From NCBI GenBank assembly GCA_038065055.1, contig JBBTRT010000001.1, forward strand, positions 48,893 through 112,892: a DNA stretch of 64,000 bases, given 5' to 3'. This stretch comes from Patescibacteria group bacterium (GTDB lineage: Bacteria; Patescibacteriota; Microgenomatia; UBA1400; CG1-02-47-37). The position numbers and the translations under genes were made by a program. Of this stretch, positions 4,509 through 45,558 are shown in pieces (the stretch's first letter is position 1; each line of letters opens with the position of its first letter). Below the pieces are notes generated by a model. It had not been told where the DNA came from. It made no database searches and saw nothing but the letters and a program-made list of their open reading frames with translations.

Positions 4509-5401
4509 CCGATTACCTCCAGCAGGAAATCGACCGGTTAAACCAAAAAATAAATGAGGCCCAAGAAGCCTTAACCGACCCACAATTAAAATCCTTAGCC
4601 GAAGAAGAAATTGCCAGCCTAAAACAAGCGCTCCAAGCTTTAGTTGAATCTCAAAATTCTTCCCCTGCGTTACCACTCCGGAGTGGTAACGAACCTCAGG
4701 GAAATGTTATTTTGGAAATCCGGCCTGGCACCGGCGGCGAAGAAGCTAAGCTCTGGGCCGAAGATTTGGAAAATATGTACGTCCGCTTTGCCAACTTGCA
4801 AAAACTAACTGTCGTTAAAATTGATTCCGGCGTGATAAAAATCAAAAGCAAAACCGCTTATGCTTTATTTAAACATGAAGCCGGCGTCCATCGCGTCCAA
4901 CGCGTGCCCACCACCGAAGCCCAGGGCCGGATTCACACTTCCACTGCCACGGTTGCCGTTCTACCGGATGTCAAAGAAACCGATATTAACGTTAACCCTA
5001 AAGATCTGGAAATTGCTTTCTTCCATGCTTCCTCTCATGGCGGTCAAAATGTCCAAAAAGTCTCCACCGCCGTCCGCATCACTCATAAACCTACCGGCCT
5101 TATCACCAGCTGCCAAACCCAGCGCTTTCAGGACCAAAACCGCAAAATCGCCATCGACATGCTCCGGTCAAAGCTCTTTCAAATTGAACAGGAAAAAAAC
5201 TTAGCCGAAACCGGCGCCGCCCGCCAATTAGCCGGCCATGGTTCCCGGGCCGAAAAAATCCGCACTTATAATTTTCCGCAAAACCGCGTTACCGACCACC
5301 GTTTAGGAAAATCCTGGAAAAGCCTGGACCGGATTATGGCCGGCGATCTTTTACCACTGCTTACGGCTCTCCAAGTTCTGCCAAAGTTACCGTTAAATTA
5401 A
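4505..5401 (+). CDS. prfA: peptide chain release factor 1 (short form)
   Basis: GGQ motif ([13 protein letters not shown]). RF1-type anticodon-like region [25 protein letters not shown]. 298 aa. ATGA overlap with rpmE. Confidence 0.85.
4668..4691. repeat. 24-bp perfect palindrome inside the prfA CDS
   Basis: CGTTACCACTCC|GGAGTGGTAACG is a perfect inverted repeat centred on TCCGGA. It is translated as ..ALPLRSGNE.. in a variable linker. Confidence 0.9.
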
Positions 5402-6365
5402 TTGTTTCCCCGGCCCGGTAAATTTCCAAGCTTACTTGATCCCCTACTTGTTTTTTAGAAATCAACTCAGTTAATCCCTGCTCATCAATGATAATAATAT
5501 CATTTTCTTTAATTCCCGCTTTCTCTGCCGGCGAGCCTTTCACCACTTCCACTACATAAGCTCCCTGGGGTACGCTGTTTAAAATCGCTGTTTTTTTATC
5601 CAAAATCTGATACCTCACCCCTAAATACGGCCGGTTAAATTTACCGGTGTTGCTGAAATTATCAATCGAATCGGCAATGACATTAATCGGGATCGCAAAC
5701 CCGATATTCTGCCCGGATTGAGATACGGCCACATTTACCCCGATTACTTCTCCGCGATAATTCAACAACGGTCCGCCGGAATTGCCCGGATTAATTGCCG
5801 CGTCCGTCTGAATCACATTGGTTAATCCGGCGCTGATTCCCCTGTCTAGACCGGAAATCACACCCGTCGTCACTGTCGACCGGAATTCACCTAAAGCTGT
5901 TCCTATCGCAATTACCATCTGCCCCACCTTTAACCCATCCGAATCCCCCAAAGTCACTGCCTGAAAATTTCCATCCAAGTTAACTTGAATAATTGCCAAA
6001 TCAGTCACCGGATCGCGGTAGATTTTTTCCGCCTTCAGCTCAGTGTTATCCGTGGTAATAATTTTATATTCTGCCTGTAAATCATTGACCACGTGTTTAT
6101 TCGTCACAATTAACCCTTCAGTCGCGTCAATAATAAATCCCGACCCAATATCCTGCTCTTTTAACCAGAATCCTTTCGCGCTTATCGTCACTACTGAAGC
6201 CGAAACTCTATCAACTACTTCCACCACCAAGTTTTCTTCTTTAACCACCTCTGGCTTGGATCGCATTCTTTCCCCTAATGCTCCCCCCACCAATCCCACG
6301 CTTAAAACAAAAATAAAAGCGAGCGCAATTGCAATTTTTTTACTTTTTGGCATCCTTGGCTTCAA
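5361..6365 (-). CDS. HtrA/DegP-family serine protease with PDZ domain
   Basis: N-terminal TM anchor. Trypsin-like catalytic Ser motif GNSGGPL with a His context (TNKHV). C-terminal PDZ-like region. Confidence 0.8.
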   Translation of the reverse strand: MKPRMPKSKKIAIALAFIFVLSVGLVGGALGERMRSKPEVVKEENLVVEVVDRVSASVVTISAKGFWLKEQDIGSGFIIDATEGLIVTNKHVVNDLQAEYKIITTDNTELKAEKIYRDPVTDLAIIQVNLDGNFQAVTLGDSDGLKVGQMVIAIGTALGEFRSTVTTGVISGLDRGISAGLTNVIQTDAAINPGNSGGPLLNYRGEVIGVNVAVSQSGQNIGFAIPINVIADSIDNFSNTGKFNRPYLGVRYQILDKKTAILNSVPQGAYVVEVVKGSPAEKAGIKENDIIIIDEQGLTELISKKQVGDQVSLEIYRAGETINLTVTLAELGEP

Positions 6366-6759
6366 CCAACTTTAATTTAACTTTGGCTTTCGCTTGATTA
6401 AAATTTAAAGTTATCTCATAATCGCCCAATTTTTTAATCGGCTTCGGGAGCTCCACTTGGGTTTTTAACACTTTAAACGCTTTCGCAATCTCTTTTTTCG
6501 TCACGCTGCCGTGAATTTTACCTTCAGAACCGGCCTTAACTGCCAATTCCACCACTTTACCATCCACTCTTTCCGCTGCTTGGCGGTCATCTTTTTGGCT
6601 GGATTCTTTTTTAACTACATCGGTTTTTTTCGCTTGTTCCATCTCCTGAATCTTTTTATCGGTTGCCAGCACCGCCAATTTTTTTGGCAACAAATAATTC
6701 ACCGCGTAACCCAAAGCCACTTCTTTAACCTCTTTTGTCTTAATAAAAATTACTTTCAT
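6340..6759 (-). CDS. rplI: 50S ribosomal protein L9
   Basis: MKVIFIKTKEVKEVALGYAVNYLLPKKLA is an N-terminus typical of L9. 139 aa. Confidence 0.85.
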   Translation of the reverse strand: MKVIFIKTKEVKEVALGYAVNYLLPKKLAVLATDKKIQEMEQAKKTDVVKKESSQKDDRQAAERVDGKVVELAVKAGSEGKIHGSVTKKEIAKAFKVLKTQVELPKPIKKLGDYEITLNFNQAKAKVKLKLVEAKDAKK

Positions 6760-6762
6760 GGC

Positions 6763-7989
6763 CTATTGTAATACTATTTCCAGGGCTTTTTCCAGTTGCA
6801 AATCTTCCTCCGGCTTTTCCGGATCGTTTTTCACTTCTTCGTCCGGCGCAATCCCTTTGGTCTCATTTACCCATTGGCCTAAGGGTAAAAGCCATTTTGC
6901 CGTCGTGACATGTAAACCCGCTCCTTCGCCCAGATCCAGTGCCTCCTGAATCGTCCCTTTGCCAAAGGTCTTTTCCCCCACTAATTTGGCCCGCTTATAA
7001 TCTCTTAACACCCCGGCTAAAATCTCTGAAGAAGACGCGCTTCCCTGGTTCACCAGCACCACCAACGGCTCTTTAAGCAGCTTACCGTTAAAATCCACGC
7101 TATAACTTTCCACTTTGTCCTGGCTATTTTTCTGCTGGACCACGACTTTGCCCCGGGGCAAAAACTCGCCTGCGTACCGCACCGCCCCTTGCAAATATCC
7201 GCCCGGATTATTCCTCAAATCCAAAATAACTCCTTTGGCTTTTTGGCTGTTTATCTCTTTCACCGCTTCTTCCCATTCAGTTTCCGTCCGGCCGCCGAAC
7301 CGGGTTAATTTAAGTAATGCTACTTTTTTATCTTCCCCCACCCAGGATAACTCCACGCTTTTTACTACAATCGTATCTCTGGCCATCATGACCTCTTTTG
7401 TTTCACTATCGCCACTGCGTAAAATCGTTAACGTCACTTCAGTCCCTTTGGGGCCGCGGATCAGCTCGACTGCTTCCGGCAAAGTTATCTCGCCGGTATC
7501 TCTGTCAACCCCTTTTTTCTCATCTTTAATCTTCAAGATAAAATCCCCGGCTTTTACCCCGGCCGCTTCTGCCGGTGTCCCGACCAAAGGCGCTATTACC
7601 GCCAGCTGGTTATCCTTAAAACCGAGTTGAATTCCGACTCCTTCAAACGCTCCGTTTAGCTCTTCCTGGGTCGCCTTATTCTGCACCGGCGGCAAAAACA
7701 CCGTGTAAGGGTCGCCCAAAGCCGCCGTCATGCCTTTAATTGCCCCCCAAGTCATCTCCTGAGTTTTTAAATTATCTTTAATTAAATAAGCTTCGTGCAA
7801 TTTATCCCAAACCTGCCAATACAAACCCATATCCACAGAATTTTTATTGCTCGGAACGTATACCTTAAAACTGTTTCTCCTGCCTAAGTTCCAGCCTATT
7901 CCGCCGGAAATTATCATCAAGGCCACCACAATAATCCCGAATCTGACTTGTTTTAAGGACAATTTTACCATTTTCCACTTAGGCCACAA
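6763..7989 (-). CDS. carboxy-terminal processing (S41, Ctp/Prc) protease
   Basis: N-terminal TM segment, PDZ-like region, and S41 motifs LVNQGSASSSEILAG and GEKTFGKG. Confidence 0.8.
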   Translation of the reverse strand: MWPKWKMVKLSLKQVRFGIIVVALMIISGGIGWNLGRRNSFKVYVPSNKNSVDMGLYWQVWDKLHEAYLIKDNLKTQEMTWGAIKGMTAALGDPYTVFLPPVQNKATQEELNGAFEGVGIQLGFKDNQLAVIAPLVGTPAEAAGVKAGDFILKIKDEKKGVDRDTGEITLPEAVELIRGPKGTEVTLTILRSGDSETKEVMMARDTIVVKSVELSWVGEDKKVALLKLTRFGGRTETEWEEAVKEINSQKAKGVILDLRNNPGGYLQGAVRYAGEFLPRGKVVVQQKNSQDKVESYSVDFNGKLLKEPLVVLVNQGSASSSEILAGVLRDYKRAKLVGEKTFGKGTIQEALDLGEGAGLHVTTAKWLLPLGQWVNETKGIAPDEEVKNDPEKPEEDLQLEKALEIVLQ

Positions 7990-8206
7990 AGGGCAGTAAG
8001 GCTAAATGCCGGGCTTGTTTAATTGATTTTGCCAATAGCCGCTGATGCTTGGCGCAGACTCCGGTCCGGCTTCTGGATAAAATTTTTCCGTGCTCGCTAG
8101 TAAATTTTTTCAACGTTTCAAACTCCTGATATTCCGGAAGTTTTTTATTTTGGCAAAAATAGCACTTTAATTTATTCAACCGGTTAGGTTTATTTTGTTT
8201 ATACAT
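7979..8206 (-). CDS. rpsR: 30S ribosomal protein S18
   Basis: 75 aa. CYFC...LKKF.SE.GKILSRSRTG.CAKHQR...IKQAR.LALLPF matches the S18 pattern. Confidence 0.85.
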   Translation of the reverse strand: MYKQNKPNRLNKLKCYFCQNKKLPEYQEFETLKKFTSEHGKILSRSRTGVCAKHQRLLAKSIKQARHLALLPFVA

Positions 8207-8211
8207 ATAGC

Positions 8212-8766
8212 TTAAAAAGGAATATCGTCCGGATTAACGGTTGGTTTTTGTTCTTCTTTCGGTTCCTCTTTGGCTTTGGCCGCTGTTTTTCTCGCCGGCG
8301 CTTTTTCTTCCGCTGCCGGGGGAGGCGCTACTTCAACTGGAATGGCTTCAACTGCCACCGCTTCCGGCTGGTATTCTTCCTGCTGTTGCTGTTCATAACT
8401 GGCGCCGCCTTCCATGCCGTCTTTGCGCTTGGAATCCAGCACAATCATGTTATCGATCACCACTTCCACGGTCGTTCTTTCCTGGCCATCGGCTGTGGTC
8501 CAATTTCTGGTTTGCAACCGGCCCTCCACAAACACTTTTCTGCCTTTAAATAAAAGTTCCGAACATAATTCGGCTAATTTATTCCAGGATACAATCCGGT
8601 GAAATTCAGTTTCTTCCTGTCTTTCCCCTCCGGCTGACGGCTGCCAGGAGCGGTTAGTCGCTAAACCAAAAGTGCAAACCGGCGTTCCCTGCGGCGTATA
8701 TCTTAACTCCGGATCGCGGGTTAAATTCCCAATTAATAAAACTTTATTTAACGATCGGCTCGACAT
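8212..8766 (-). CDS. ssb: single-stranded DNA-binding protein
   Basis: OB-fold N-terminus (LNKVLLIGNLTRDPELRYT), acidic/Pro-rich linker and the canonical C-terminal DDIPF tip. Confidence 0.9.
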   Translation of the reverse strand: MSSRSLNKVLLIGNLTRDPELRYTPQGTPVCTFGLATNRSWQPSAGGERQEETEFHRIVSWNKLAELCSELLFKGRKVFVEGRLQTRNWTTADGQERTTVEVVIDNMIVLDSKRKDGMEGGASYEQQQQEEYQPEAVAVEAIPVEVAPPPAAEEKAPARKTAAKAKEEPKEEQKPTVNPDDIPF

Positions 8767-9070
8767 GATCCCTCCCCTGTCCGCCTTTGGCGGATATTAA
8801 TAAATATCTTAATATTATTTCACCCTGCTTGGCCAATTTATCCAATTCATTTACTTCTTCTTCAGGCAGTTCAATCACGCAAAAACAATAGACTCCCTTG
8901 GTCTGCTTTTTAATCGCGTAAGCCAGCTCGCGCTTGCCTAAAATATTAATTTTGGTTAACTTAGCCTTGACTTTTGTGAGCAATGTTTCGACTAAGGTTT
9001 TAATCTTTTTGTCGTCTTTGCCGGCCTCTTCAGTCAAGATCAAGGCAAATTCGTATGATCGCATTGCCAT
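8744..9070 (-). CDS. rpsF: 30S ribosomal protein S6
   Basis: MRSYEFALIL start (probably Met3, position 9064). Sits in the rpsF-ssb-rpsR-rplI gene order. Confidence 0.8.
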   Translation of the reverse strand: MAMRSYEFALILTEEAGKDDKKIKTLVETLLTKVKAKLTKINILGKRELAYAIKKQTKGVYCFCVIELPEEEVNELDKLAKQGEIILRYLLISAKGGQGRDHVEPIVK

Positions 9071-9076
9071 AGTATA

Positions 9077-11733: not shown

Positions 11734-11896
11734 ATTGTACTTCATTGTACTTATGCGTCATTCCCTTTGTCAAGCGTCTCTTCATTAAAATATTATCTCT
11801 GGCAATCTCAAAAATTCTGGCATAAGCAATCTTAATTCTGCTTTCATCAGCAATAATATTTTTAAAGGTTACCTTTGGGACCAAAATTCTGTTCAT
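11681..11896 (-). CDS. hypothetical small protein
   Basis: ATGA start/stop coupling to the upstream P-loop gene. Overlaps the Xis-like gene by ~50 nt, so uncertain. Confidence 0.35.
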   Translation of the reverse strand: MNRILVPKVTFKNIIADESRIKIAYARIFEIARDNILMKRRLTKGMTHKYNEVQYGKQVSDNRGSGYEATS

Positions 11897-15104: not shown

Positions 15105-15941
15105 TTATTGGTTACAGGCCTGTAACGCTACATTTTTTTGATTACCATAAATAATTTGACATTCTCTTTCAACTGACGTAGCGCCATACAAAACACTGCA
15201 ACCACGCATTAAATCATCATATTTAACTGTCACTTCGCTTTTACATTTTGCAATATCTTCAGCAGATTTTTGTGGGGTTTGTGGTGAAACAATAATCGGC
15301 TGGTAGGATGGAATAACTACTTTTTTACTTGCCCAATATTCATCTGTTTTAACTTTACATTCATCATAAGTAAGTTTCCCAAAATCAAAGTTAAAATTAC
15401 TATCTTTGTAATTACAATCAATTTTTACAGACCCGAAATCTATGGGGGCAATATCGTTTGTTGAACCAGTATTCTGATTATTAATCTGGGCTTGATCTCT
15501 ATCGCACTGATTTCTATCTTTATAAAAAATCCACTTATCGCCTATCTGACAACAGGTACTTTTATCACACTCGCTTTTTTTAATATATATCGTTCCGCCG
15601 CCACACTCAGCAGTCGTCCTACAATTCACCATATAATCCGAATTACTATTAATATTAGAATTTATAGGTTTTGTCTCCGGCTCACTAGATGGTAATAAAG
15701 ATGGACTTACAATAGGACTTGGTAAAACAATTTTTTGCCGTTCACGACCAGCTCTTTGCTCTTTAATAATTGGCCCAGCTAAAACAACAATTGGCACTAT
15801 TAAAACTAATACTATTGCAAAAAACAACCCTTTCCCAACCTTTTTAATATCTTGTTTCGCTTCGACAGATTTAGATTTTTTTGCTCTCTTATGTTTTATT
15901 AGAACTGCACCTGTAGATCTTTTTGCAGATTTGTTATTCAT
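15105..15941 (-). CDS. membrane-anchored Cys-rich protein
   Basis: Basic N-terminus, one TM helix, a Ser/Pro linker, then a domain with about 14 Cys. 278 aa. Confidence 0.4.
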   Translation of the reverse strand: MNNKSAKRSTGAVLIKHKRAKKSKSVEAKQDIKKVGKGLFFAIVLVLIVPIVVLAGPIIKEQRAGRERQKIVLPSPIVSPSLLPSSEPETKPINSNINSNSDYMVNCRTTAECGGGTIYIKKSECDKSTCCQIGDKWIFYKDRNQCDRDQAQINNQNTGSTNDIAPIDFGSVKIDCNYKDSNFNFDFGKLTYDECKVKTDEYWASKKVVIPSYQPIIVSPQTPQKSAEDIAKCKSEVTVKYDDLMRGCSVLYGATSVERECQIIYGNQKNVALQACNQ

Positions 15942-18231: not shown

Positions 18232-18232
18232 G

Positions 18233-32904: not shown

Positions 32905-33156
32905 TTACTTATGATGCACTCCTAATAAATGTAACATCGCGTGGCGAGTTAAGAAAGCTACAGAATGCCCCTTGAGCTTCGCTTGTTCTTTACAAATCAC
33001 AATATCTCCCAATCTGACCACACCATCCGGCCCGGGTTCATAGTCTTCTGTGGGAAACGATAATACATCAGTCGACTTATCCAACTTGCGGTATTTTTTA
33101 TTCAATGCCTGAATTTCTGCTTCACTGGCAAAAGACAGCTCCGCCACAACCTTCAT
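32905..33156 (-). CDS. ybeY: rRNA maturation endoribonuclease YbeY (short form)
   Basis: LNKKYRKLDKSTDVLSFP, LGDIVIC and the HxxxHxxxxxH zinc motif (HAMLHLLGVHH). Only 83 aa. Confidence 0.65.
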   Translation of the reverse strand: MKVVAELSFASEAEIQALNKKYRKLDKSTDVLSFPTEDYEPGPDGVVRLGDIVICKEQAKLKGHSVAFLTRHAMLHLLGVHHK

Positions 33157-33584
33157 AACGCTTCTTGCACCAGCTTGGCCACCATTTTTCCGTCTGCTTT
33201 GCCTTGGGTTTTCGCCATCACCGCTTTCATTACCATCCCAAAGTTCCGTTCCGGAACGGTACTAAGTACTTCCTCAACAATTGCTTTAATTTCAACTTCG
33301 CTCATTGCTTCCGGCAAATAACCCTTGATCAAATTTAATTCAGTAGTTTCTTTATCCACCAACTCCTGCCGGTTGCCTTGTTGATACAGCTCAATCGCTT
33401 CCTGTCTTTTTTTGGCTTCTTTACCAAGTACCGCCTCGGCTTCCTGATCAGTTAAAACCCCACCCTTGGCTATCTGGCTATTTTTCAAAGCCGCCACCAA
33501 CATCCTCAAAGTCGATACCTTAAGGCCATCTTTAGCTTTCATCGCCTGAACTAAATCTAGCGAGATTACATCTGTTTTTGCCAT
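33153..33584 (-). CDS. GatB/YqeY domain protein
   Basis: AMKAKDGLKVSTLRMLVAALKN and C-terminal GKADGKMVAKLVQEAL. Contains a 20-bp near-palindrome at 33243-33262. Confidence 0.8.
   Translation of the reverse strand: MAKTDVISLDLVQAMKAKDGLKVSTLRMLVAALKNSQIAKGGVLTDQEAEAVLGKEAKKRQEAIELYQQGNRQELVDKETTELNLIKGYLPEAMSEVEIKAIVEEVLSTVPERNFGMVMKAVMAKTQGKADGKMVAKLVQEAL
33243..33262. repeat. 20-bp near-perfect palindrome inside the yqeY-like CDS
   Basis: GTTCCGTTCCGGAACGGTAC matches the 45155-45174 core at 19/20. The inner 14 bp form a perfect palindrome. Confidence 0.85.
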
Positions 33585-38806: not shown

Positions 38807-38848
38807 TTCAGTCTAAGCAAACTTATTTCCCTTGTCAATTACTTAATC

Positions 38849-41173
38849 TTAAATCCCAAAATACCAAAAACCTTTTTCTTTTAACATTTTCGGCAACTTA
38901 AACAAATCCCCTTTAAGAACAACTATCAACACCTGATTTTGCTCTGCTAAAAATTCCTGCAACTCTTGACTGACAAGCCCTCTCACCCCATCTTTATCGC
39001 TGGAAACAATAAGTAAAGATCTTCCCGTATCAATATTTTCTAGATTCGAATCCTTCAGTAATTTTGGAAAATAGCTGTCATCGATTAAACCAATCATGGA
39101 AAAAATCGTTCCGTCAGTATCCCTGATTAACATTGGTATAACCTTCAAATTTAATTTTTGCTTGCCATCAGCATCAATGACCGCTAAGTTGGCATACCCT
39201 GCCTTAAGAGCGATATGATTATTAGCGCCAGACTCGCCATCCGAAATTGTTATTACTTTCCTGCCTTCAAATGTATCATTACTTGCTCGCCAAGCAATTG
39301 GAATTTCAAGTTCGATTTTTTCCCCATCATAATATACTTCATCAAATTCACCCGCCGCGGTTTCTGCCGTCGCCAAAGCCACATACCTATGAATCGTATC
39401 AATCATGGCTTGCTGTACTTCCGGACTTGCCCCTTCGTCCACCACAAAATTAGCCAGGCCCGCTTCCCACTCCGCTATTTGCTCAGGCGTCGAATCCGGG
39501 CTCGGCGCCCCAGACCCAAAAATTGTCGCCTCACCATCTATAAATTGCCACCCTCCGGCGGTAAGCACTCCATCCTTATTCGTCACCGCCAGGTTGGAAA
39601 CCGTAAACACTTCCGCGCCAATGGTCAGTTCCGCCCGCCCGCCCGCAAAAATTTTCAAATTATCAACCCCCGGAATAGTAAAATGGTCTCCATCCTGAAT
39701 TAATCGATATTCATCCCCCAGTGTTTTCTGCAATTCAGAAATTGGCCCCTCCGGCAACGGGGCGCTAATCTTCTCCATGGCAAAAAATACTTTAAACCCT
39801 GCCTCGTCTAAAACAATTTGAAAATCCTGTTCTTCTCCTGTCGTCGGCGATATAAAATGCATACTTTTTCCATCGACATCAAATACCATAACCATTTTTG
39901 TTAAAGCAATTCCCTGATCCGGAGCGATCGGCGTTACTCCGCTCGCCTGCAAAGCCCAGACAATTTCATTTCCCATAGGCGCTCCATAAATTACCTGCCA
40001 TTCACCATTAACTCTTATCCGTGCCTCAGTTAATCCATCAGTTCCCCTATAAAATAAAACTTTTTCTTCACCTAAATCAAACCCAACCGTATCATTCTTA
40101 TCAACGCCATCACACTCACTGCCGCATTTAGTCCAATAATCTTGGATATCGGTCTCTAAAATCACCGGCGCTTCCGGAAAAATACCTAACGCCAATCTAG
40201 CCTCAGCCGCCAATTCCACTCCGCCAGGCAAGTTGGCTAACTGACCCGCATCTACCACGCTAGAGGTACCGTCGCTAAAATGAACCGTTAAAGTCATCGT
40301 TCCATCCGCATTTTTTTGCGCCGCCAATTTGGCTGCTTCCGCCACCAAATTTCCATCCAAAACACTAAACTCCTGTATTGATGTCTCCATCAACCCGTTT
40401 GATCCAGCCGCTTTCCAGCCATCCAAGCTTATTTGCGCTCCAACCATTTTATACAACTGATAATCCGATTTCCCGTCTTTATCAAGATCAACTGACTCCA
40501 CCGGAATTGCCAGCATTGGCGTTGCCTTTGCATCTTTAGCCGCCTGCCACTCCAAACCGACCAACTCACCGTTCTTTTCTGTCATCCGTAAATCCGGCAT
40601 TGCCGCGCCATTAACATCAAAACAGGCCACCGCTGCACCCATTACTACTTGGTCTGCCCCTGACGGCGCCGCCAAATCCACTGAATGAATTAACGCTTCC
40701 TTTTGTAATGTCGCACACAAACTTAAAGCATCACTCTGCCCGCCACCATCAGGATCTTTAACAGAATTATAAGCCCCCACACAAGCGGTTATCACTAATG
40801 CTAAACCGCTCCAATAAACTATCGACCGGCCATTAAAACCTTGCAAATTAAAATGCCTATCTCCAACTTCATCCTTCGGAAAAGGATCAAAAGCTAAATC
40901 TAAGGCTCGTCCGGTCTCCTGCCAAAACTGTTGCGGATTTTCTTTTATGGCCTCTCTAACAATTCTTACCGGCTCAGCTGTATCATGCCACCAGTTTTCC
41001 AGATGAGTTCTGGAAATTCGGGCATATTCTGCCGCTGATAAAATCAGGATCTTTCCCAAAGGTTTAGCTTCCTTTCCTTTTTCCGCCTTAAAATCAGCAG
41101 AATGAACGTCTAATTCTCCCTCCTTAAAACCGTCTGGTCCACCTGAAAAAGTCATTATTGGTGCAAGTGTCAT
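38849..41173 (-). CDS. large membrane-anchored protein, unknown function
   Basis: 774 aa. A ~120-aa N-terminal cytoplasmic part, one TM helix (IVYWSGLALVITACVGAY), then a large Ala/Gly/Asp-rich ectodomain. Confidence 0.45.
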   Translation of the reverse strand: MTLAPIMTFSGGPDGFKEGELDVHSADFKAEKGKEAKPLGKILILSAAEYARISRTHLENWWHDTAEPVRIVREAIKENPQQFWQETGRALDLAFDPFPKDEVGDRHFNLQGFNGRSIVYWSGLALVITACVGAYNSVKDPDGGGQSDALSLCATLQKEALIHSVDLAAPSGADQVVMGAAVACFDVNGAAMPDLRMTEKNGELVGLEWQAAKDAKATPMLAIPVESVDLDKDGKSDYQLYKMVGAQISLDGWKAAGSNGLMETSIQEFSVLDGNLVAEAAKLAAQKNADGTMTLTVHFSDGTSSVVDAGQLANLPGGVELAAEARLALGIFPEAPVILETDIQDYWTKCGSECDGVDKNDTVGFDLGEEKVLFYRGTDGLTEARIRVNGEWQVIYGAPMGNEIVWALQASGVTPIAPDQGIALTKMVMVFDVDGKSMHFISPTTGEEQDFQIVLDEAGFKVFFAMEKISAPLPEGPISELQKTLGDEYRLIQDGDHFTIPGVDNLKIFAGGRAELTIGAEVFTVSNLAVTNKDGVLTAGGWQFIDGEATIFGSGAPSPDSTPEQIAEWEAGLANFVVDEGASPEVQQAMIDTIHRYVALATAETAAGEFDEVYYDGEKIELEIPIAWRASNDTFEGRKVITISDGESGANNHIALKAGYANLAVIDADGKQKLNLKVIPMLIRDTDGTIFSMIGLIDDSYFPKLLKDSNLENIDTGRSLLIVSSDKDGVRGLVSQELQEFLAEQNQVLIVVLKGDLFKLPKMLKEKGFWYFGI

Positions 41174-41291
41174 ACTCTAGGACAGAATATACCCTATAGT
41201 ATAACTAACTCCTGATAATTTCTATGCGTAACTTATACATATTCATTATAGGCCGCGAATTATATTTTATCAATACCTCGTTGCTTATTGC

Positions 41292-41320
41292 AAGCCTTCC
41301 GGGAGACTCCCGGAAGGCTT
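41292..41320. repeat. REP hairpin copy 1 (29-bp perfect palindrome)
   Basis: AAGCCTTCCGGGAGACTCCCGGAAGGCTT, 34 nt upstream of the RAYT ATG. Confidence 0.9.
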
Positions 41321-41353
41321 TAACCCTACTCAAAAAGTGATAATATAAAAGTA

Positions 41354-42040
41354 ATGCCCGCTAAACACAGTATCAAAGAATACGAAGCTGGAGCTTATTA
41401 CCACCTTTACAATCGAGGTGTTGAAAAAAGGATTGTTTTCCAAGACGATGCCGATTATAAAACTTTCCTCGGCTTTCTCCGCCTCTACCTCACAGCTCCC
41501 CACCTTCCGGGAGACTCCCGGAAGGTTGCCCGCCCCATATCAAAACCCTTAAATAATTTCCAAGGTAATATCATTCTCCTTGCCTATTGCTTAATGCCTA
41601 ACCACTTTCATCTGCTAGTTAAACAAAACCAAGAAGATGGTATTAACCATTTCATGCGTTCGCTCATGGCCCAATATGTTCGTTACTTTAACACTAAATA
41701 CCAACGCATCGGTAGTTTATTCCAAGGGCCTTATAAAGCTGTAAAAGTCGAAAGCGAAGAACAATTTGTATATCTGTCAAAATATATTCACCGCAACCCA
41801 CTCAATCTCCCCGCCTTCCGGGAGTCTCCCGGAAGGTTAAATAATCTTGAAAACTACAAATTTTCCTCTTACGGCAACTACCTAAACCTTTTTCAACAAT
41901 CATGGGTTTCATGCTCTGATATTCTCTCTTATTTTTCCACTAAAAATCCTCAAACAACCTACAAAACTTTCATTAAAGAATCAACTGATAAAGATATATT
42001 AACCATCGCTCCGCTGACCATTGATATTGAATTTGATTAA
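41354..42040 (+). CDS. REP-associated tyrosine transposase (IS200/Y1 family)
   Basis: YHLYNRG, HUH motif PNHFHLLV, and catalytic Tyr region YLSKYIHRNP. 228 aa. Confidence 0.75.
   Translation: MPAKHSIKEYEAGAYYHLYNRGVEKRIVFQDDADYKTFLGFLRLYLTAPHLPGDSRKVARPISKPLNNFQGNIILLAYCLMPNHFHLLVKQNQEDGINHFMRSLMAQYVRYFNTKYQRIGSLFQGPYKAVKVESEEQFVYLSKYIHRNPLNLPAFRESPGRLNNLENYKFSSYGNYLNLFQQSWVSCSDILSYFSTKNPQTTYKTFIKESTDKDILTIAPLTIDIEFD
41503..41525. repeat. REP hairpin copy 2 (inside the RAYT CDS, in frame)
   Basis: CCTTCCGGGAGACTCCCGGAAGG, translated as ..HLPGDSRKV.. Confidence 0.9.
41814..41836. repeat. REP hairpin copy 3 (inside the RAYT CDS, in frame, loop base flipped)
   Basis: CCTTCCGGGAGTCTCCCGGAAGG, translated as ..PAFRESPGRL.. 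Confidence 0.9.
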
Positions 42041-42047
42041 CCTTCCG

Positions 42048-42070
42048 CCTTCCGGGAGACTCCCGGAAGG
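42048..42070. repeat. REP hairpin copy 4 (8 nt after the RAYT stop)
   Basis: CCTTCCGGGAGACTCCCGGAAGG, preceded by the partial duplicate CCTTCCG. Confidence 0.9.
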
Positions 42071-42073
42071 TAC

Positions 42074-43102
42074 TTACCCTCTTAGCCGGGCAATGTCTTT
42101 AATCGTGATCAACACCATTAACCCGATTAACGCCAGCATTCCTGCCAGATGTATCCGCTGTTCCCATTCCGGCTTTAACTTCTTGCCGGTAATTATTTCC
42201 CCCAGCACAAAAAATAATCGCCCCCCGTCTAAGGCCGGCAAAGGCAATAAGTTTAAAATCGCCAGATTAATCGACAAAATCGCCATAAACTGCAACACGG
42301 CAATAAAACCCTCCTTAGCCACATTTTTGGAAATCTCGTAAATTCCCACCGGCCCGGTCACATCCTTCGGCACTTGACCTTGTCCTAATCCCACTGCCAT
42401 TTTAACTAAACCGGTCACAATCTCTTTGCCCCACAACCAGGCCTCTTTTACCCCGGTCACCATTCCCCGGAACGGCCGCTGCCACAGCGGATACTGCACC
42501 AAATCCACATCAGTTATCCCCACCCCTAGCGCCCCTTGGCCGGCCGGTGTTTCTTCTGCTAATCTTGGCGTCAACTTTACTTCCCGGCCATCCCCCAACT
42601 GCAACGCTACTTCCTGTCCCCGATTCTCATTTACCCACTCAATAAACGCCTGCGTCTCCTTGAAATTTAAAATTTTATCATCTGGCTTCAAACCGGCCGT
42701 TTGCGCCGGCGAGCCATCCGTTACGCTGGTAACTTTCAAGTAATCGACTTTTTCCGGAATCCCGATCTTGGTATAAATTCCGGCAAACAATAAAATTCCC
42801 AGCAAAAAATTCATACTCACCCCTGCCAACAAAACCGCTATTTTTACCGGCTTTTTTTGGCTCGCAAACGAGCCGTGGCCCTCGGGTAAATCCTCTCCCA
42901 GCATCCGCACAAACCCACCGAACGGCAACAAATTAAGACTATACTCTGTTTCCTGTTTCTTAAATCCTAATATTTTTGGCGGATAGCCAAACCCAAATTC
43001 TTCCACTTTAATCTTAAACCACCGCGCCACCACAAAATGCCCCAGTTCATGGATCAGGATCAAAACCGACAAAATAATGAAAAAAGTTAAAAGTGGCGGC
43101 AT
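42074..43102 (-). CDS. rseP: RIP metalloprotease RseP (M50 site-2 protease)
   Basis: HELGHF at the N-terminus, a PDZ-like middle region and the LNLLPLPALDGG motif. Confidence 0.85.
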   Translation of the reverse strand: MPPLLTFFIILSVLILIHELGHFVVARWFKIKVEEFGFGYPPKILGFKKQETEYSLNLLPFGGFVRMLGEDLPEGHGSFASQKKPVKIAVLLAGVSMNFLLGILLFAGIYTKIGIPEKVDYLKVTSVTDGSPAQTAGLKPDDKILNFKETQAFIEWVNENRGQEVALQLGDGREVKLTPRLAEETPAGQGALGVGITDVDLVQYPLWQRPFRGMVTGVKEAWLWGKEIVTGLVKMAVGLGQGQVPKDVTGPVGIYEISKNVAKEGFIAVLQFMAILSINLAILNLLPLPALDGGRLFFVLGEIITGKKLKPEWEQRIHLAGMLALIGLMVLITIKDIARLRG

Positions 43103-43105
43103 ATT

Positions 43106-43141
43106 CTAATTTTCAATTTTCAAAACCCAATTTTCAATCAA
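43106..43141. repeat. 36-bp AT-rich intergenic motif, copy 2 (upstream of rseP)
   Basis: TAATTTTCAATTTTCAAAACCCAATTTTCAATCAAT. The partner half-motifs at 43180-43192 and 43206-43219 match 32871-32883 and 32887-32900. Confidence 0.85.
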
Positions 43142-43223
43142 TAACCAATAAACCAATTAATTAATTTTTCAAACATTAAATCATTGAAAATTCATTGTAA
43201 ATTGATAATTGTAAATTGGTAAA

Positions 43224-43787
43224 TTAAATTGTAATCAATTCTTTCTGTTTTTGCTGTTCAATTTGGTCCATTTTCTGATTATACTCATCAATGAGTTTCT
43301 GCAGCTTATCGTGCTGACGGGTAATATCGTCTTCAGATACCCCTGCCTGATCTTTCTGATTATCAATGTCTTTTTTTAGTTCAACCCGCGTTTGCCTCAG
43401 CATCGCTTTTCCGGCTTCGATTTTTTGTTTGACGATTTTTACCAGCTCCTCCCGGCGCTCTTGGTTCAAGGACGGAATCGTAATCCTGATCTGGTCATTA
43501 TCGGCTATTGGATTTACGTGCAAATCCGACTGCTGAATCCCTTTGACAATTTTTTCCAAAATACTCGAGTCCCAAGGTTTAATCAGTAAGGTTGACGGAT
43601 CCGGCGCCGTAATCCCCGCCACCTCTTTTAAAGTCAACCAGGTCCCTTCATACGCTTCCACTTTAACATCTTCCACCATCGCTGGTTTCGCCCTGCCGGT
43701 TTGAATATTCACCATTTCCCCTTTAACCAACTGCATCACCGTGTCCATTTTTTGCCTGCCGCTATTTAGCCAGCTCTCATCAATCAT
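43224..43787 (-). CDS. frr: ribosome recycling factor
   Basis: 187 aa with a typical RRF pattern (GRA.P.....V.V.AYG....L...A.I...D..T..I.PWD) and a C-terminal coiled coil. Confidence 0.9.
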   Translation of the reverse strand: MIDESWLNSGRQKMDTVMQLVKGEMVNIQTGRAKPAMVEDVKVEAYEGTWLTLKEVAGITAPDPSTLLIKPWDSSILEKIVKGIQQSDLHVNPIADNDQIRITIPSLNQERREELVKIVKQKIEAGKAMLRQTRVELKKDIDNQKDQAGVSEDDITRQHDKLQKLIDEYNQKMDQIEQQKQKELITI

Positions 43788-43802
43788 AAATTCAGTCTAA
43801 CA

Positions 43803-44102
43803 TCAAAGGCTGATTCTGGCAATCTCGCTCACCCTGATTTTTTCCTTAAATTTAGCGGCCGCCTGGACCACTAGGTCTTTAACCGTCCGTTTACTGTCCC
43901 TGATATAAGTCTGTTTTAACAGCTCTTTCACGTTTTTCGGTTTCATGCTGGCTACCTGCATGGCCAATTCTTTACACAAAGCCGTAAACTCTTCGCTTCT
44001 GCCCATAAAATCGGTTTCGCACAAAACTTTAACCATGGCGCCAACCCGGCCGCCATTATGAATATAAGCGTAAACTTGGCCTTCGCTTAATTTATTTATC
44101 AT
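43803..44102 (-). CDS. tsf: elongation factor Ts-like protein, core-domain only (99 aa)
   Basis: EGQVYAYIHNGGRVGAMVKVLCETDFMGRSEEF...LAMQVASMKP and a C-terminal ...KIRVSEIARISL match the EF-Ts core. Lies downstream of rpsB as usual. There is no room for the N-terminal UBA-like domain. Confidence 0.6.
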   Translation of the reverse strand: MINKLSEGQVYAYIHNGGRVGAMVKVLCETDFMGRSEEFTALCKELAMQVASMKPKNVKELLKQTYIRDSKRTVKDLVVQAAAKFKEKIRVSEIARISL

Positions 44103-44817
44103 TGGTTAAATCCTTTGGCTGCAACGCCTTGCCATCCTGATAAGCCTGGCAAATTTTACCCACGATAAACTTAATCGAACTAACCGCGTCGTCGTTGGCC
44201 GGAATCGAAAAATCCACCAAATCCGGATCGGCATTGGTATCGACAATGCCCACCACCGTTAAACCTTTTGTCCTGGCTTCTCTCACCGCCGCGATTTCTT
44301 TTTTCACGTCCACTATAAACACCGCCGCCGGCACTTGGGTTAAATTTCTTAAGCCCCCCAAAAACCGGTCCACTTTGGCAATATCCCGATCAATCAGCAA
44401 GTTTTCTTTTTTCGTGTATTTTTTCAATTCCCCTTTGGCTTTTTTTTCTTCCAGGTCCTTAATCCGGTCCAGGCTCTTTTTAATCTGTTCCCAATTGGTA
44501 ATAATCCCGCCCATCCAGCGAATGCTGATATAGGGTGCGCCGGCTTTTAACGCCTCTTCTTTAATAATCGCCGACGCCTGCCGCTTGGTCCCGACCAAAA
44601 TAATCTCTTTTTTCTGGGCCACCAAATCGCGGACAAACGTCATCGCCGTGGCTAATTTTTCGGCCGTTATTCCCAGGTCAAAAATATGCACCCCTTCTCT
44701 TTTGGTGAAAATATACTTGCCCATCTTGGGGTTCCAACGCCTGGCCTGATGGCCAAAATGGCAACCCGCATCCAATAAATCTTTCAAACTAATCTTATAT
44801 TCGGTTTTTTTACTCAT
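44092..44817 (-). CDS. rpsB: 30S ribosomal protein S2
   Basis: LLDAGCHFGHQARRWNPKM, ILVGTKRQA, RWMGGIITNW. Confidence 0.9.
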   Translation of the reverse strand: MSKKTEYKISLKDLLDAGCHFGHQARRWNPKMGKYIFTKREGVHIFDLGITAEKLATAMTFVRDLVAQKKEIILVGTKRQASAIIKEEALKAGAPYISIRWMGGIITNWEQIKKSLDRIKDLEEKKAKGELKKYTKKENLLIDRDIAKVDRFLGGLRNLTQVPAAVFIVDVKKEIAAVREARTKGLTVVGIVDTNADPDLVDFSIPANDDAVSSIKFIVGKICQAYQDGKALQPKDLTNDK

Positions 44818-44820
44818 AAG

Positions 44821-45558
44821 TTAGCTAGTATACCGGCTGTTGGCTAAATTTTCAAGCAGACAGACAACCGTCACCGGCCCGACGCCTCCGGGAACCGGCG
44901 TAATCGCCCCCGCCACATTTTTCACCACTGCAAAATCCACATCGCCTTTCGGCCAACCCACATCAATCACTGTGGCCCCGGGTTTCACCATTTCCGCAGT
45001 AATTAATTTTTCTCTACCAGTACAACTTATCAAAATATCTGCTTCTCTGGTTTTATTTTTTAAATCTTTATCTCTTGAACTAAGCTCTAATCCCTTTAAT
45101 CTAACCGCTAATTTCCTTCCTACCATCCCTCTCCCCACAACCACTATTTTTTCAGTACCGTTCCGGAACGGTACTGTTTTCAAAATTACCTCAACTGCCC
45201 GCACTGTTGCCTGAATAAAAGGCGAATTCTCTCTAAGTCCATCAACGTCTTTACTTGGCACAATTGTTTCAACCAGCTGAGCCCACTGCTTTTCAAACTC
45301 TTTTCCCCTATACCCAGGCCTCTGAATCATGACTCCCTGGATCAACTCATCTTGATTCCACTCGGTCAATTTCCCCGTATCGCTGCTGGTAATCACCTCT
45401 ATCCCCAAACGCTTGCCTGCCTCTTGTTTTAACCGGCTGTAAACCTGGCCCGCTTGGTCATCTTTAAACACTAAAATTGCCAATTTTGTCCCCGGTTTTA
45501 CCTTTGGCTTTAACTGCGCTTCTTTTTCCCTGGCCAATTTCTCCCCGTCAATAATCAT
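44821..45558 (-). CDS. folD: methylenetetrahydrofolate dehydrogenase/cyclohydrolase (short form)
   Basis: DVDGL, VVVGRGMVGRKLA, ITPVPGGVGPVTVVCLLEN. 245 aa. Contains a 24-bp palindrome. Confidence 0.75.
   Translation of the reverse strand: MIIDGEKLAREKEAQLKPKVKPGTKLAILVFKDDQAGQVYSRLKQEAGKRLGIEVITSSDTGKLTEWNQDELIQGVMIQRPGYRGKEFEKQWAQLVETIVPSKDVDGLRENSPFIQATVRAVEVILKTVPFRNGTEKIVVVGRGMVGRKLAVRLKGLELSSRDKDLKNKTREADILISCTGREKLITAEMVKPGATVIDVGWPKGDVDFAVVKNVAGAITPVPGGVGPVTVVCLLENLANSRYTS
45153..45176. repeat. 24-bp perfect palindrome inside the folD CDS
   Basis: CAGTACCGTTCC|GGAACGGTACTG, translated as ..KTVPFRNGTEK.. Confidence 0.9.

What the first reader, a model, noticed from the sequence alone, without database searches (positions are those of the whole stretch)
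4668..45176. Long perfect palindromes centred on TCCGGA embedded in frame in housekeeping genes (prfA, yqeY-like, folD)
Seen: prfA carries CGTTACCACTCCGGAGTGGTAACG (4668-4691), a 24-bp perfect palindrome. folD carries CAGTACCGTTCCGGAACGGTACTG (45153-45176), also a 24-bp perfect palindrome. The yqeY-like gene carries GTTCCGTTCCGGAACGGTAC (33243-33262), which matches the folD core at 19/20. Each lies in a region that is variable in the respective protein family, translated as [18 protein letters not shown] and TVPERNFG. My rough expectation for one 24-bp perfect palindrome in 64 kb of random sequence is about 64000/4^12, or ~0.004. Two of them plus a near-identical third copy is therefore not chance. 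Established precedent: Rickettsia palindromic elements insert in frame into protein-coding genes. Inference: this is a family of very short hairpin elements, possibly related to the REP/RAYT system at 41.3-42.1 kb, which shares the CCGG(A) centre. They appear to colonise permissive loops of essential genes, or they serve as intragenic structural or regulatory sites.
Basis: partly seen in the sequence, partly recalled or inferred. Interest (0 to 1): 0.55.

Follow-up and report, generated by a model that had tools for sequence, protein, structure and literature searches.

The report
In-frame palindrome cassettes in CPR genes
Three essential genes of a tiny groundwater bacterium (Candidatus Beckwithbacteria) carry translated, perfectly symmetric 20-24-base DNA palindromes from one sequence family, and relatives keep and swap the same palindromes at the same spots, so they behave like small selfish or recognised DNA hairpin elements living inside genes.

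Summary
Two 24-bp perfect palindromes lie in RF1 and FolD, and a 19/20 copy lies in YqeY. About 0.007 palindromes of this length are expected per window, and none appeared in 200 synonymous-codon shuffles.

The palindromes act at the DNA level, not through protein constraint. The folD and yqeY copies share 18 identical bases but are read in mirror frames. Across relatives, 7 of 12 stem pairs change on both sides and none shows a G-T intermediate. In 56 of 72 PxRx'G motifs the residue pair is the one palindromic codons would give.

The same RF1 and FolD linkers carry family members across Candidatus Beckwithbacteria. The 20-nt core is identical between RF1 genes whose synonymous sites are saturated. 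Cassette types also switch at a single site: a FolD 84% identical (86% outside the linker) carries the window's prfA-type palindrome.

They add no net length in FolD or YqeY, so they overwrite loops rather than insert.

Best reading: REP-like hairpin cassettes at fixed permissive sites, kept perfect and exchanged between loci. A link to the neighbouring RAYT-like gene is not shown, because its hairpin is a different sequence. That gene and two homologues do carry their own hairpins in frame at two conserved loops, which shows that such elements live inside ORFs in this group.

Verdict: new variant of a known kind.

The parts
4668..4691 (.). Type T2 cassette: 24-bp perfect palindrome CGTTACCACTCCGGAGTGGTAACG, translated as (A)LPLRSGN(E) in the hypervariable linker of RF1 just before [15 protein letters not shown].
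   Evidence: Its 20-nt core is identical in L180, whose RF1 is 57% identical by BLASTP and 60% in my codon alignment. It matches the folD site of L011 at 23/24.
4505..5401 (+). prfA (peptide chain release factor 1, 298 aa), host gene of the T2 cassette.
45153..45176 (.). Type T1 cassette: 24-bp perfect palindrome CAGTACCGTTCCGGAACGGTACTG, translated on the minus strand as (T)VPFRNGT(E) in the FolD loop between the catalytic and NAD(P)-binding domains.
   Evidence: It is identical in eight same-species contigs and in L177, whose FolD is 79% identical.
44821..45558 (-). folD (245 aa), host gene of the T1 cassette.
33243..33262 (.). T1-like cassette: 14-bp perfect core within a 20-bp palindrome with 9 of 10 pairs complementary. 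It shares 18 consecutive bases, AGTACCGTTCCGGAACGG, with the folD cassette. It is read on the minus strand in the mirror frame as (S)TVPERN.
   Evidence: It is absent from the relatives L172 and L173 (83% and 80% nt identity), which have the same gene length.
33153..33584 (-). GatB/YqeY-domain gene (143 aa), host gene of the T1-like cassette.
41354..42040 (+). RAYT-like Y1 (HUH) transposase gene. It is context only; no link to the T cassettes is shown.
   Evidence: Pfam Y1_Tnp scores 39 bits against a cut-off of 23. NCBIfam REP_Tyr_transpos scores 39.5 bits, below its cut-off of 80.
41295..41317 (+). RAYT-associated hairpin CCTTCCGGGAGACTCCCGGAAGG, 5' flank copy. It is a different sequence family from T1 and T2.
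41503..41525 (+). Same hairpin, in frame inside the RAYT ORF (variable loop 1, about residues 50-58).
41814..41836 (+). Same hairpin with an inverted centre (GAGTCTC), in frame inside the RAYT ORF (variable loop 2, about residues 154-162).
42048..42070 (+). Same hairpin, 3' flank copy just after the RAYT stop codon.

Best explanation
The three sequences belong to a lineage-wide family of short (18-24 bp), G+C-rich, perfect DNA palindromes. The half-site consensus is N-T-[T/A]-C-C-R-Y-Y-C-C, mirrored about the centre CC|GG. They sit, translated, in hypervariable surface linkers of housekeeping genes of Candidatus Beckwithbacteria (CPR/Patescibacteria).

They behave like REP-type hairpin cassettes that occupy fixed permissive sites. 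The palindrome overwrites an existing loop and adds no net length. It is kept perfectly symmetric and conserved in sequence far beyond neutral divergence. It is replaced from time to time by a copy of another family member from a different locus.

Shown:
- DNA-level symmetry that the encoded peptide does not explain.
- A conserved core with covarying stem positions.
- Presence at the same RF1 and FolD sites in many relatives.
- The same cassette type in unrelated genes.
- Switching of type at one site.
- A recent gain in yqeY through a local cluster of substitutions.

Inferred:
- The copying step is short-patch ectopic conversion or template switching primed by the hairpin, possibly helped by a Y1 (RAYT-like) enzyme that recognises the hairpin in single-stranded DNA.
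- The elements persist either as selfish passengers or because that recognition is useful to the cell.
For: 1. DNA-level origin, not peptide constraint.
- Synonymous-codon shuffles gave 0 of 200 windows with a 24-bp palindrome and none of 16 bp or more at the three sites.
- The folD and yqeY copies share 18 identical bases but are read in mirror frames, VPFRNG versus VPERN.

2. Stem covariation.
- In 14 distinct cassettes from RF1, FolD and YqeY sites, 7 of 12 pairs change on both sides and 0 change on one side only, so there are no G-T intermediates.
- 89% of cells are paired. None of 500 shuffles reached the observed percentage paired or covariation score.
- Positions p1, p2, p6 and p7 (all C) and p9 (T) never vary on the 5' arm.

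3. Protein-level echo. Of 72 PxRx'G motifs in RF1 and FolD homologues, 56 have the (x,x') pair that palindromic codons NNC-CGG-N'N'N require: F/N, L/S, S/D or P/G. Shuffled means are 11.6 and 6.5, and 0 of 5000 shuffles reached the observed counts.

4. Fixed sites.
- 46 of 120 RF1 homologues and 24 of 120 FolD homologues carry the motif in the same linker.
- DNA confirms perfect 18-24-bp palindromes at those sites in L009, L012, L094, L096, L097, L103, L177, L179, L180 and L181.

5. Sequence conservation beyond neutrality.
- Window and L180 RF1 have 4-fold-site identity of 0.27, which is saturated, yet the 20-nt core is 20/20 identical.
- L009 and L179 FolD have 4-fold-site identity of 0.43, yet 22/22 identity in the palindrome.

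6. Exchange between loci.
- The L011 folD site matches the window's prfA cassette at 23/24.
- T3-type cassettes occur in FolD (L009, L179) and in RF1 (L092, L097, L101).
- L181 is a hybrid with T2 outer and T1 inner bases.
- T1 and T2 at the folD site do not follow the FolD identity matrix.

7. Recent gain in yqeY. Relatives L172 and L173 lack the palindrome at equal gene length. GAA CGG AAx already exists in L173. The window's left arm is a cluster of 7-8 substitutions in 12 nt.

8. Precedent in the same genome group. The RAYT-like gene here and two homologues (L182, L183) each carry their own, mutually unrelated hairpin at one or both flanks of the gene and in frame at the same two hypervariable loops.

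9. Intragenic REPs are documented elsewhere (PMC3733652).
Against: - Copy number is low: three in 64 kb, and only the RF1 or FolD site in each 10-20 kb relative locus. REPs usually number in the hundreds and are extragenic.
- There is no GTAG or CGTC tag next to the palindromes.
- No RAYT flanked by a T-type hairpin was found. The window's RAYT uses another hairpin that occurs nowhere else in 183 loci except same-species contigs. T-type peptides were not seen in the loops of 150 RAYT homologues.
- Long-term occupancy of the same two sites fits a host function as well as it fits a selfish element.
- Part of the patchy T1/T2 distribution could come from allelic recombination between lineages. 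Identity between window and L177 stays high for about 30 nt downstream of the cassette.
- The cassettes used for the covariation count were chosen because they are palindromic, so the percentage paired is biased upward.
Confidence: 0.5

Rival explanations
1. The palindromes are host cis-elements: recognition sites for a sequence-specific factor, placed in loops where the protein tolerates them. The factor could be a dimeric DNA-binding protein of the ParB/Noc/MatP/SlmA kind that uses sparse intragenic palindromes, or an RNA-binding protein or RNase acting on the mRNA hairpin. Selection for binding keeps them conserved.
For: - The same two sites are occupied across the clade.
- Core bases are invariant.
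- 20/20 identity holds across saturated synonymous divergence.
- Spacing is sparse, roughly one per 15-30 kb.
- The predicted RNA hairpins are stable: -14.6 and -14.4 kcal/mol, z -3.6 and -4.9.
- From my own knowledge: the Noc-binding site of Bacillus subtilis, ATTTCCCGGGAAAT, is a CCCGGG-centred palindrome that often lies inside genes.
Against: - Five stem positions vary, and the changes seen are almost always symmetric. Half-sites of a dimer-binding site should drift independently.
- No G-U pair occurs in the sense strand of any of 14 cassettes. Among near-perfect cassettes the single sense-strand mismatch is C·A in L011, L092, L101 and L178. This speaks against selection on the mRNA hairpin.
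- The yqeY copy folds weakly, with z -1.1.
- Different types coexist in one genome, and partial tandem units occur.
- Rfam gives no match, and none of the three sites is terminator-like.
Confidence: 0.25
2. The palindromes arise in place by quasi-palindrome (template-switch) mutation, with no dedicated factor. In fast-evolving linkers of a lineage with reduced DNA repair, snap-back synthesis repeatedly converts imperfect inverted repeats into perfect ones. Resemblance between sites is convergence on a few CCGG-rich codon combinations.
For: - The yqeY left arm looks rewritten to complement the pre-existing right arm GGAACGGAAC.
- Only Watson-Crick pairs occur, with no wobble intermediates.
- There is no net length change.
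- CCGG is 4.6 times more frequent than base composition predicts, so the raw material is common.
- From my own knowledge: template-switch correction of quasi-palindromes is established in E. coli.
Against: - It predicts arbitrary, unconserved sequences. Instead there are discrete types shared between unrelated genes and genomes.
- Identity is 20/20 and 22/22 over saturated divergence.
- Core bases are invariant.
- In yqeY, the one base that breaks local symmetry is the base that matches the folD cassette, giving 18/18 identity.
Confidence: 0.12
3. Chance, codon usage or a conserved peptide motif ([LIV]PxRxG) produces the palindromes, with no DNA-level cause.
For: - The peptide motif recurs in RF1 and FolD linkers.
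- CCG, CGG and GGN codons are common.
Against: - Markov expectation is about 0.007 per window.
- 0 of 200 synonymous shuffles reproduce a 24-bp palindrome.
- The x/x' residue pairs follow base complementarity, not chemistry.
- Synonymous third positions covary: CCG...GAC versus CCA...GAT.
- The same DNA is used in another frame in yqeY.
Confidence: 0.02

Closest known systems
REP / REPIN elements with RAYT transposases, including the intragenic REPs catalogued by Di Nocera et al. 2013 (PMC3733652)
   Same: Both are short, G+C-rich, hairpin-forming palindromic repeats that form sequence families specific to a lineage. Single and tandem units occur. Some copies lie inside ORFs and are translated. 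A RAYT-like Y1 transposase gene with flanking hairpins is present in the same genome.
   Different: - The elements here are perfect, even palindromes of only 18-24 bp with no GTAG or CGTC tag.
- Copy number is low.
- All copies seen are intragenic.
- They add no net length.
- They occupy the same sites in orthologues across deep divergence.
- The only RAYT in the window is flanked by a different hairpin.
Rickettsia palindromic elements (RPE)
   Same: Both are palindromic repeats found in frame inside essential protein-coding genes, are translated, and sit in segments the protein tolerates.
   Different: From my own knowledge, RPE-1 is about 100-150 bp and adds 30-50 residues as a true insertion. 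The elements here are 24 bp, replace an existing loop without length change, and come from an unrelated phylum.
[quoted passage not shown] 2019, PMC6649704)
   Same: Both are perfect inverted repeats embedded in functional protein-coding genes, where symmetry and coding capacity are preserved together.
   Different: The mitochondrial repeats are long (up to 284 bp), lie in conserved protein regions, and are individually unique. The elements here are short, lie in hypervariable loops, and form shared sequence families present in several genes.
Sparse intragenic palindromic binding sites of chromosome-organising proteins (parS/ParB, NBS/Noc, matS/MatP, SBS/SlmA)
   Same: These are 12-16-bp palindromes at tens of kilobases spacing, often inside genes, and conserved within a lineage (my own knowledge). 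The NBS consensus ATTTCCCGGGAAAT resembles the CCCGGG-centred variants in L012 and L094.
   Different: The stem positions here covary symmetrically and several types coexist. No cognate protein was identified. Position relative to the replication origin is unknown, because GC skew is uniform across the window.

Membership tests
REP/REPIN (RAYT-associated repetitive extragenic palindromes) | Short (about 20-40 nt) G+C-rich palindrome able to form a stem-loop | tested here: met
   The palindromes are 20-24 bp. RNA folds give -14.6 and -14.4 kcal/mol with z -3.6 and -4.9.
REP/REPIN (RAYT-associated repetitive extragenic palindromes) | High copy number, dispersed through the genome | tested here: inconclusive
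   There are three copies in 64 kb, and one per 10-20 kb relative locus. The whole genome could not be scanned.
REP/REPIN (RAYT-associated repetitive extragenic palindromes) | Predominantly extragenic location | tested here: not met
   All copies lie inside ORFs and are in frame. The window is about 93% coding.
REP/REPIN (RAYT-associated repetitive extragenic palindromes) | Conserved GTAG or CGTC tetranucleotide at one end of the stem (PMC3733652) | tested here: not met
   The bases at the stem ends are GCG|TTACC, ACA|GTACC and AAC|ATTCC. No GTAG or CGTC is present.
REP/REPIN (RAYT-associated repetitive extragenic palindromes) | A cognate RAYT gene flanked by the same repeat (REPtron) | tested here: not met
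   The only Y1 transposase gene in the window is flanked by CCTTCCGGGAG-N-CTCCCGGAAGG, not by a T-type palindrome. The rest of the genome was not available.
Rickettsia palindromic elements (RPE) | Insertion that adds a peptide segment relative to orthologues | tested here: not met
   The FolD peptide aligns without a gap to solved FolD structures. YqeY has the same length as palindrome-free relatives. The RF1 linker differs by 2 residues from a palindrome-free homologue.
Rickettsia palindromic elements (RPE) | Element length of about 100-150 bp, in Rickettsia | tested here: not met
   The elements are 18-24 bp. The host is Candidatus Beckwithbacteria.
Intrinsic transcription terminator | G+C-rich hairpin followed by a T-run | tested here: not met
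   None of the three sites is called terminator-like on either strand.
Palindromic binding site of a dimeric DNA-binding protein (parS/NBS type) | Half-sites each match one consensus, and deviations are independent in the two arms | tested here: not met
   7 of 12 pairs change on both sides and 0 change on one side only.
Palindromic binding site of a dimeric DNA-binding protein (parS/NBS type) | Cognate binding protein encoded in the genome, with sites clustered relative to the origin or terminus | not tested
   There is no origin or terminus signal in the window: GC skew is about -0.25 throughout. No binding protein was searched for.
Known RNA families (Rfam 15) | Match at gathering score | tested here: not met
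   No matches in the whole window.

The most novel reading that the evidence does not exclude
The palindromes are not passengers. They would be hard-wired recognition hairpins of a conserved CPR system, in which a Y1 (RAYT-derived) or other hairpin-specific enzyme services a small fixed set of intragenic sites in essential genes such as RF1 and FolD, and keeps them identical by directed conversion.

The RAYT-like genes follow the same logic: each carries its own cognate hairpin in frame at two conserved loops and at one or both flanks of the gene. This would be a domesticated hairpin-enzyme partnership, with a role in gene regulation, replication or genome maintenance in ultra-small bacteria.
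Probability: 0.2. Interest if true: 0.8.

Novelty: new variant of a known kind. Interest (0 to 1): 0.6.

Why it matters
- It shows that in the very compact genomes of CPR bacteria, REP-like hairpin DNA lives inside essential genes and shapes their protein linkers.
- It gives a clean natural case of selection or drive acting on DNA symmetry within translated sequence.
- The fixed-site conservation and cassette swapping offer a tractable system for asking how short palindromes are copied between loci. Candidate routes are a Y1 transposase, template switching and short-patch conversion.
- It also matters for annotation. The recurring peptides IPFRNG, LPLRSG, IPPRGG and PPAGG in CPR proteins are footprints of DNA elements, not protein motifs.

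Tried and rejected
- **Viral contigs.** A scan for TACCRYTCCGGARYGGTA found 3 unrelated hits in non-CPR-like contigs, which looks like chance level.
- **Rfam and tRNA scans.** Nothing was found in the window.
- **Terminator scan.** The three sites are not terminator-like.
- **tblastn with the window's RAYT against all fetched loci.** Only same-species copies were found, so RAYT presence could not be correlated with the palindromes.
- **T-type peptides in the loops of 150 RAYT homologues.** None was convincing.
- **Genome-collection scan with RF1.** A universal peptide pattern swamped it. It returned mostly non-CPR bacteria and only a few Microgenomates. They served as informal controls: the only RF1 linkers with a palindrome of at least 18 bp and at most one mismatch were those of the Beckwithbacteria-like relatives.
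- **16-bp palindrome TTTGCCCCGGGGCAAA (7147-7162, S41 peptidase).** I considered it as a fourth member. It lies in the conserved segment EFLPRGK, it is absent in L180 and L181, and 16-bp palindromes are expected at about 1 per window. I treat it as chance.
- **CCGG enrichment.** CCGG occurs 520 times against 113 expected from base composition. Most of this is explained by trinucleotide content, which predicts 428, so it is not evidence of many hidden elements.
- **Literature.** Searches found no description of this phenomenon in CPR/Patescibacteria.
- **PDB sequence search with the RAYT.** No match.

Full report
**1. The observation**

- CGTTACCACTCCGGAGTGGTAACG at 4668-4691.
- GTTCCGTTCCGGAACGGTAC at 33243-33262.
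- CAGTACCGTTCCGGAACGGTACTG at 45153-45176.

They lie inside ORFs 4505-5401 (+), 33153-33584 (-) and 44821-45558 (-). Pfam identifies these as RF1 (PCRF and RF-1 domains), a YqeY-domain protein and FolD.

An exhaustive scan shows that the two 24-mers are the only perfect palindromes longer than 16 bp in the window. Order-3 Markov sequences give about 0.007 palindromes of 24 bp or more per window.

I shuffled synonymous codons within each of 68 genes, keeping every protein and its codon usage. No 24-bp palindrome appeared in 200 shuffles, and none of 16 bp or more appeared at the three sites.

The folD palindrome is identical in eight independently assembled contigs from different samples and assemblers. 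It is therefore not an assembly artefact.

**2. Source organism**

Exact-protein look-ups place the window in Hainich groundwater metagenomes. Sources name the RF1 homologues Candidatus Beckwithbacteria or Patescibacteria. The organism is a CPR bacterium with a compact genome: about 93% of the window is coding.

**3. The cause is DNA symmetry, not protein constraint**

The folD and yqeY copies share 18 consecutive bases, AGTACCGTTCCGGAACGG. They are read in mirror frames: GTA CCG TTC CGG AAC GGT gives VPFRNG, and ACC GTT CCG GAA CGG AAC gives TVPERN.

I aligned 14 distinct cassettes from the RF1, FolD and YqeY sites of this and related genomes and counted the stem pairs.
- 7 of 12 pairs change on both sides.
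- No pair changes on one side only, so there are no G-T intermediates.
- 89% of cells are paired.
- None of 500 shuffles reached the observed percentage paired or covariation score.
- Slid controls collapse to 26-46% paired.

These cassettes were chosen because they are palindromic, so the percentage paired is inflated. The symmetric changes between cassette types are still informative. Synonymous third positions covary, for example CCG...GAC versus CCA...GAT.

The same signal is visible at the protein level in a much larger sample. Of 72 PxRx'G motifs in 240 RF1 and FolD homologues, 56 have the residue pair (F/N, L/S, S/D or P/G) that codons NNC-CGG-N'N'N of a palindrome require. Shuffled means are 11.6 and 6.5, and 0 of 5000 shuffles reached the observed counts.

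**4. Where the palindromes sit**

In RF1 the palindrome lies in the linker just before [15 protein letters not shown]. This linker is hypervariable in length and sequence across 120 homologues.

In FolD it lies between ATVRAVEVIL and IVVVGRG, and that segment is also hypervariable. The segment aligns without a gap to the corresponding loop of solved FolD structures: KTVPFRNGTEK against KRFNIDTFGRN.

In YqeY it lies in a loop whose length is the same in all close relatives.

The palindromes are not net insertions, however. They overwrite existing loop sequence.

**5. A family that is fixed in position**

46 of 120 RF1 homologues and 24 of 120 FolD homologues carry the motif in the same linker. 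DNA fetched for relatives confirms perfect or near-perfect palindromes at those sites.

| Site | Locus | Cassette |
|---|---|---|
| FolD | L177 | AGTACCGTTCCGGAACGGTACT |
| FolD | L011 | CGTTACCACTCCGGAGTGATAACG |
| FolD | L178 | CGTTACCACCCCGGAGTGGTAACG |
| FolD | L009, L179 | CATTCCGTTCCGGAACGGAATG, plus a second unit |
| RF1 | L012 | ACATTCCATCCCGGGATGGAATGT |
| RF1 | L094, L096, L103 | TTCCACCCCGGGGTGGAA |
| RF1 | L097 | ATTCCGCTCCGGAGCGGAAT |
| RF1 | L180 | ATTACCACTCCGGAGTGGTAAT |
| RF1 | L181 | CGTTACCGTTCCGGAACGGTAACG |

More distant Microgenomates and the non-CPR bacteria returned by the genome-collection scan have no such palindrome in the RF1 linker.

Several RF1 and FolD genes carry two tandem or partial units.

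Five positions on the 5' arm never vary: p1, p2, p6 and p7 are C, and p9 is T. Positions p3, p4, p5, p8 and p10 covary with their partners.

**6. Conservation beyond neutrality**

Window and L180 RF1 are 60% identical in protein in my codon alignment (57% by BLASTP). Their 4-fold degenerate sites are 27% identical, which is saturated. The 20-nt core TTACCACTCCGGAGTGGTAA is nonetheless identical, and the next pair outward changed symmetrically from G-C to A-T.

L009 and L179 FolD are 64% identical in protein, with 4-fold-site identity of 0.43. They share a 22/22 identical palindrome.

Neutral drift with self-symmetrisation cannot give this. Either the sequence is recognised by something, or it is repeatedly re-seeded from conserved copies.

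**7. Exchange between loci**

- The folD site of L011, whose FolD is 84% identical to the window's over the full length and 86% outside the linker, carries a cassette that matches the window's prfA cassette at 23/24. It does not carry the window's folD cassette.
- The types at the folD site are window T1, L011 T2, L177 T1 and L178 T2. This distribution does not follow the FolD identity matrix.
- T3-type cassettes occur both in FolD and in RF1 of other genomes.
- L181 is a hybrid of T2 outer and T1 inner bases.
- In yqeY, relatives at 83% and 80% nucleotide identity lack the palindrome at equal length. GAA CGG AAx already exists in L173. The window differs by 7-8 substitutions clustered in the 12 nt of the left arm. 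The one base that breaks local symmetry is the base that matches the folD cassette.

One caveat applies. Identity between window and L177 stays high for about 30 nt downstream of the folD cassette. Allelic recombination between lineages may therefore explain part of the patchiness at a single site. It cannot explain sharing between different genes.

**8. The RAYT-like gene**

ORF 41354-42040 matches Pfam Y1_Tnp above its cut-off. It matches NCBIfam REP-associated tyrosine transposase below that model's cut-off.

Its hairpin CCTTCCGGGAG-N-CTCCCGGAAGG occurs four times: 5' flank, two in-frame positions inside the ORF, and 3' flank. It occurs nowhere else in the window or in any fetched locus apart from same-species contigs. 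It is a different sequence from T1 and T2, and its centre is not CCGG.

The gene is still informative. In an alignment of 55 homologues, the two internal hairpins fall in two hypervariable loops. Two homologues for which I obtained DNA show nearly the same layout with entirely different hairpins:
- L182 has CCTGCAGGTTC-S-GAACCTGCAGG at both loops and just after the stop codon, but no 5' flank copy.
- L183 has TGACAGGGTC-S-GACCCTGTCA at the 5' flank, both loops and the 3' end.

Copies within one gene are identical, while homologues differ completely. This is the same behaviour as the T cassettes: fixed in-frame sites with homogenised content. It shows that REP-type hairpins live inside ORFs in this group.

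**9. Other functions tested**

- None of the three sites is terminator-like.
- Rfam has no match.
- The RNA hairpins of the prfA and folD copies are stable, but the yqeY copy is not.
- The absence of G-U pairs, and the C·A mismatches in the sense strand of the near-perfect cassettes (L011, L092, L101, L178), argue against selection on the mRNA.
- A dimeric protein binding double-stranded DNA would not produce symmetric covariation.
- A viral-contig scan gave only chance-level hits.

**10. Comparison with known systems**

Intragenic REPs and Rickettsia RPEs are documented (PMC3733652). Perfect coding palindromes are known in Nematomorpha mitochondria (PMC6649704).

The elements here fail several defining REP features:
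- They are intragenic, not extragenic.
- They have no GTAG or CGTC tag.
- No cognate RAYT was found.
- Copy number is low within the window.

They also fail the RPE features of size and true insertion. I therefore do not file them as members of either family. They work like intragenic REPs and add unusual properties: perfect symmetry, very small size, loop overwriting, deep positional conservation and cassette switching. I found no description of this in CPR bacteria.

**11. Verdict**

| Reading | Confidence |
|---|---|
| REP-like hairpin cassettes at fixed permissive sites, kept perfect and exchanged between loci | about 0.5 |
| Host cis-element recognised by a specific factor | about 0.25 |
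| In-place template-switch mutation with no dedicated factor | about 0.12 |
| Chance or peptide constraint | about 0.02 |

The decisive test is a whole-genome census with a search for a cognate Y1 transposase. I could not run it because the collection scans were exhausted.

Noticed in passing
window 41295-42070; L182 806-1352; L183 127-859: The RAYT-like Y1 transposase gene carries its own cognate hairpin at the flanks and also in frame at two hypervariable loops. Two homologues (50% and 44% identical) have nearly the same layout and spacing with completely unrelated hairpin sequences; L182 lacks the 5' flank copy. Copies within each gene are therefore homogenised, while sequences differ between genomes. 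Two further homologues, P0376 and P0381, repeat the same peptide in both loops. I found no description of this architecture.
   Followed up: partly
L092 6107-6122, L139 10336-10351, L164 478-495, L140 17959-17974, L125 423-438, L144 153-168: A second in-frame palindrome family, TCCGCCAGCTGGCGGA (peptide PPAGG), occurs in Microgenomates-like CPR. Several copies lie at a second hot spot of RF1 (IKGxPPAGGAxSLF). The window's RF1 lacks it.
   Followed up: partly
L126 14872-14893, L142 11819-11838, L147 7550-7565; L137 2860-2899: Further G+C-rich perfect palindromes occur in related CPR loci: (A)CCTGCCTGCCGGCAGGCAGG(T), read as LPAGRQ where it lies inside an ORF (L142, L147; the L126 copy has no covering ORF of 90 aa or more), and a 40-bp palindrome GCAAGGACCGTCCTTGCAGGCCTGCAAGGACGGTCCTTGC inside a 322-aa ORF.
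   Followed up: no
window 1-64000: GC skew is very strong and uniform, about -0.25 on the + strand in every 4-kb bin, whatever the gene orientation. The window therefore contains no replication origin or terminus. A perfect palindrome is skew-neutral by construction, and these palindromes persist against this mutational asymmetry.
   Followed up: no
window 1-64000: CCGG occurs 520 times against 113 expected from base composition, a 4.6-fold excess. Trinucleotide content predicts 428, so most of the excess is codon-level composition. TCCGGA occurs 42 times.
   Followed up: partly
window 7147-7162, 1482-1497, 15111-15126: Three 16-bp perfect palindromes are present: TTTGCCCCGGGGCAAA in the S41 peptidase, TTTGGCCATGGCCAAA in the M29-like peptidase, and GTTACAGGCCTGTAAC at the 3' end of ORF 15105-15941. 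About 1 is expected by chance. The S41 palindrome lies in a conserved segment and is absent in L180 and L181, so it is probably chance.
   Followed up: partly
window 4505-5401: RF1 is short at 298 aa. The PCRF domain match starts at profile position 42, so the N-terminal domain is truncated. This is a feature of the whole clade, whose homologues are 286-315 aa.
   Followed up: no
L175 4585-4602 (IMG/VR contig, 60% GC): A phage-like contig has GATACCGCTCCGGAGCGGTATGA, read as IPLRSGM, near the start of a 274-aa stop-free frame. It resembles the T family but is a single hit at chance level.
   Followed up: no
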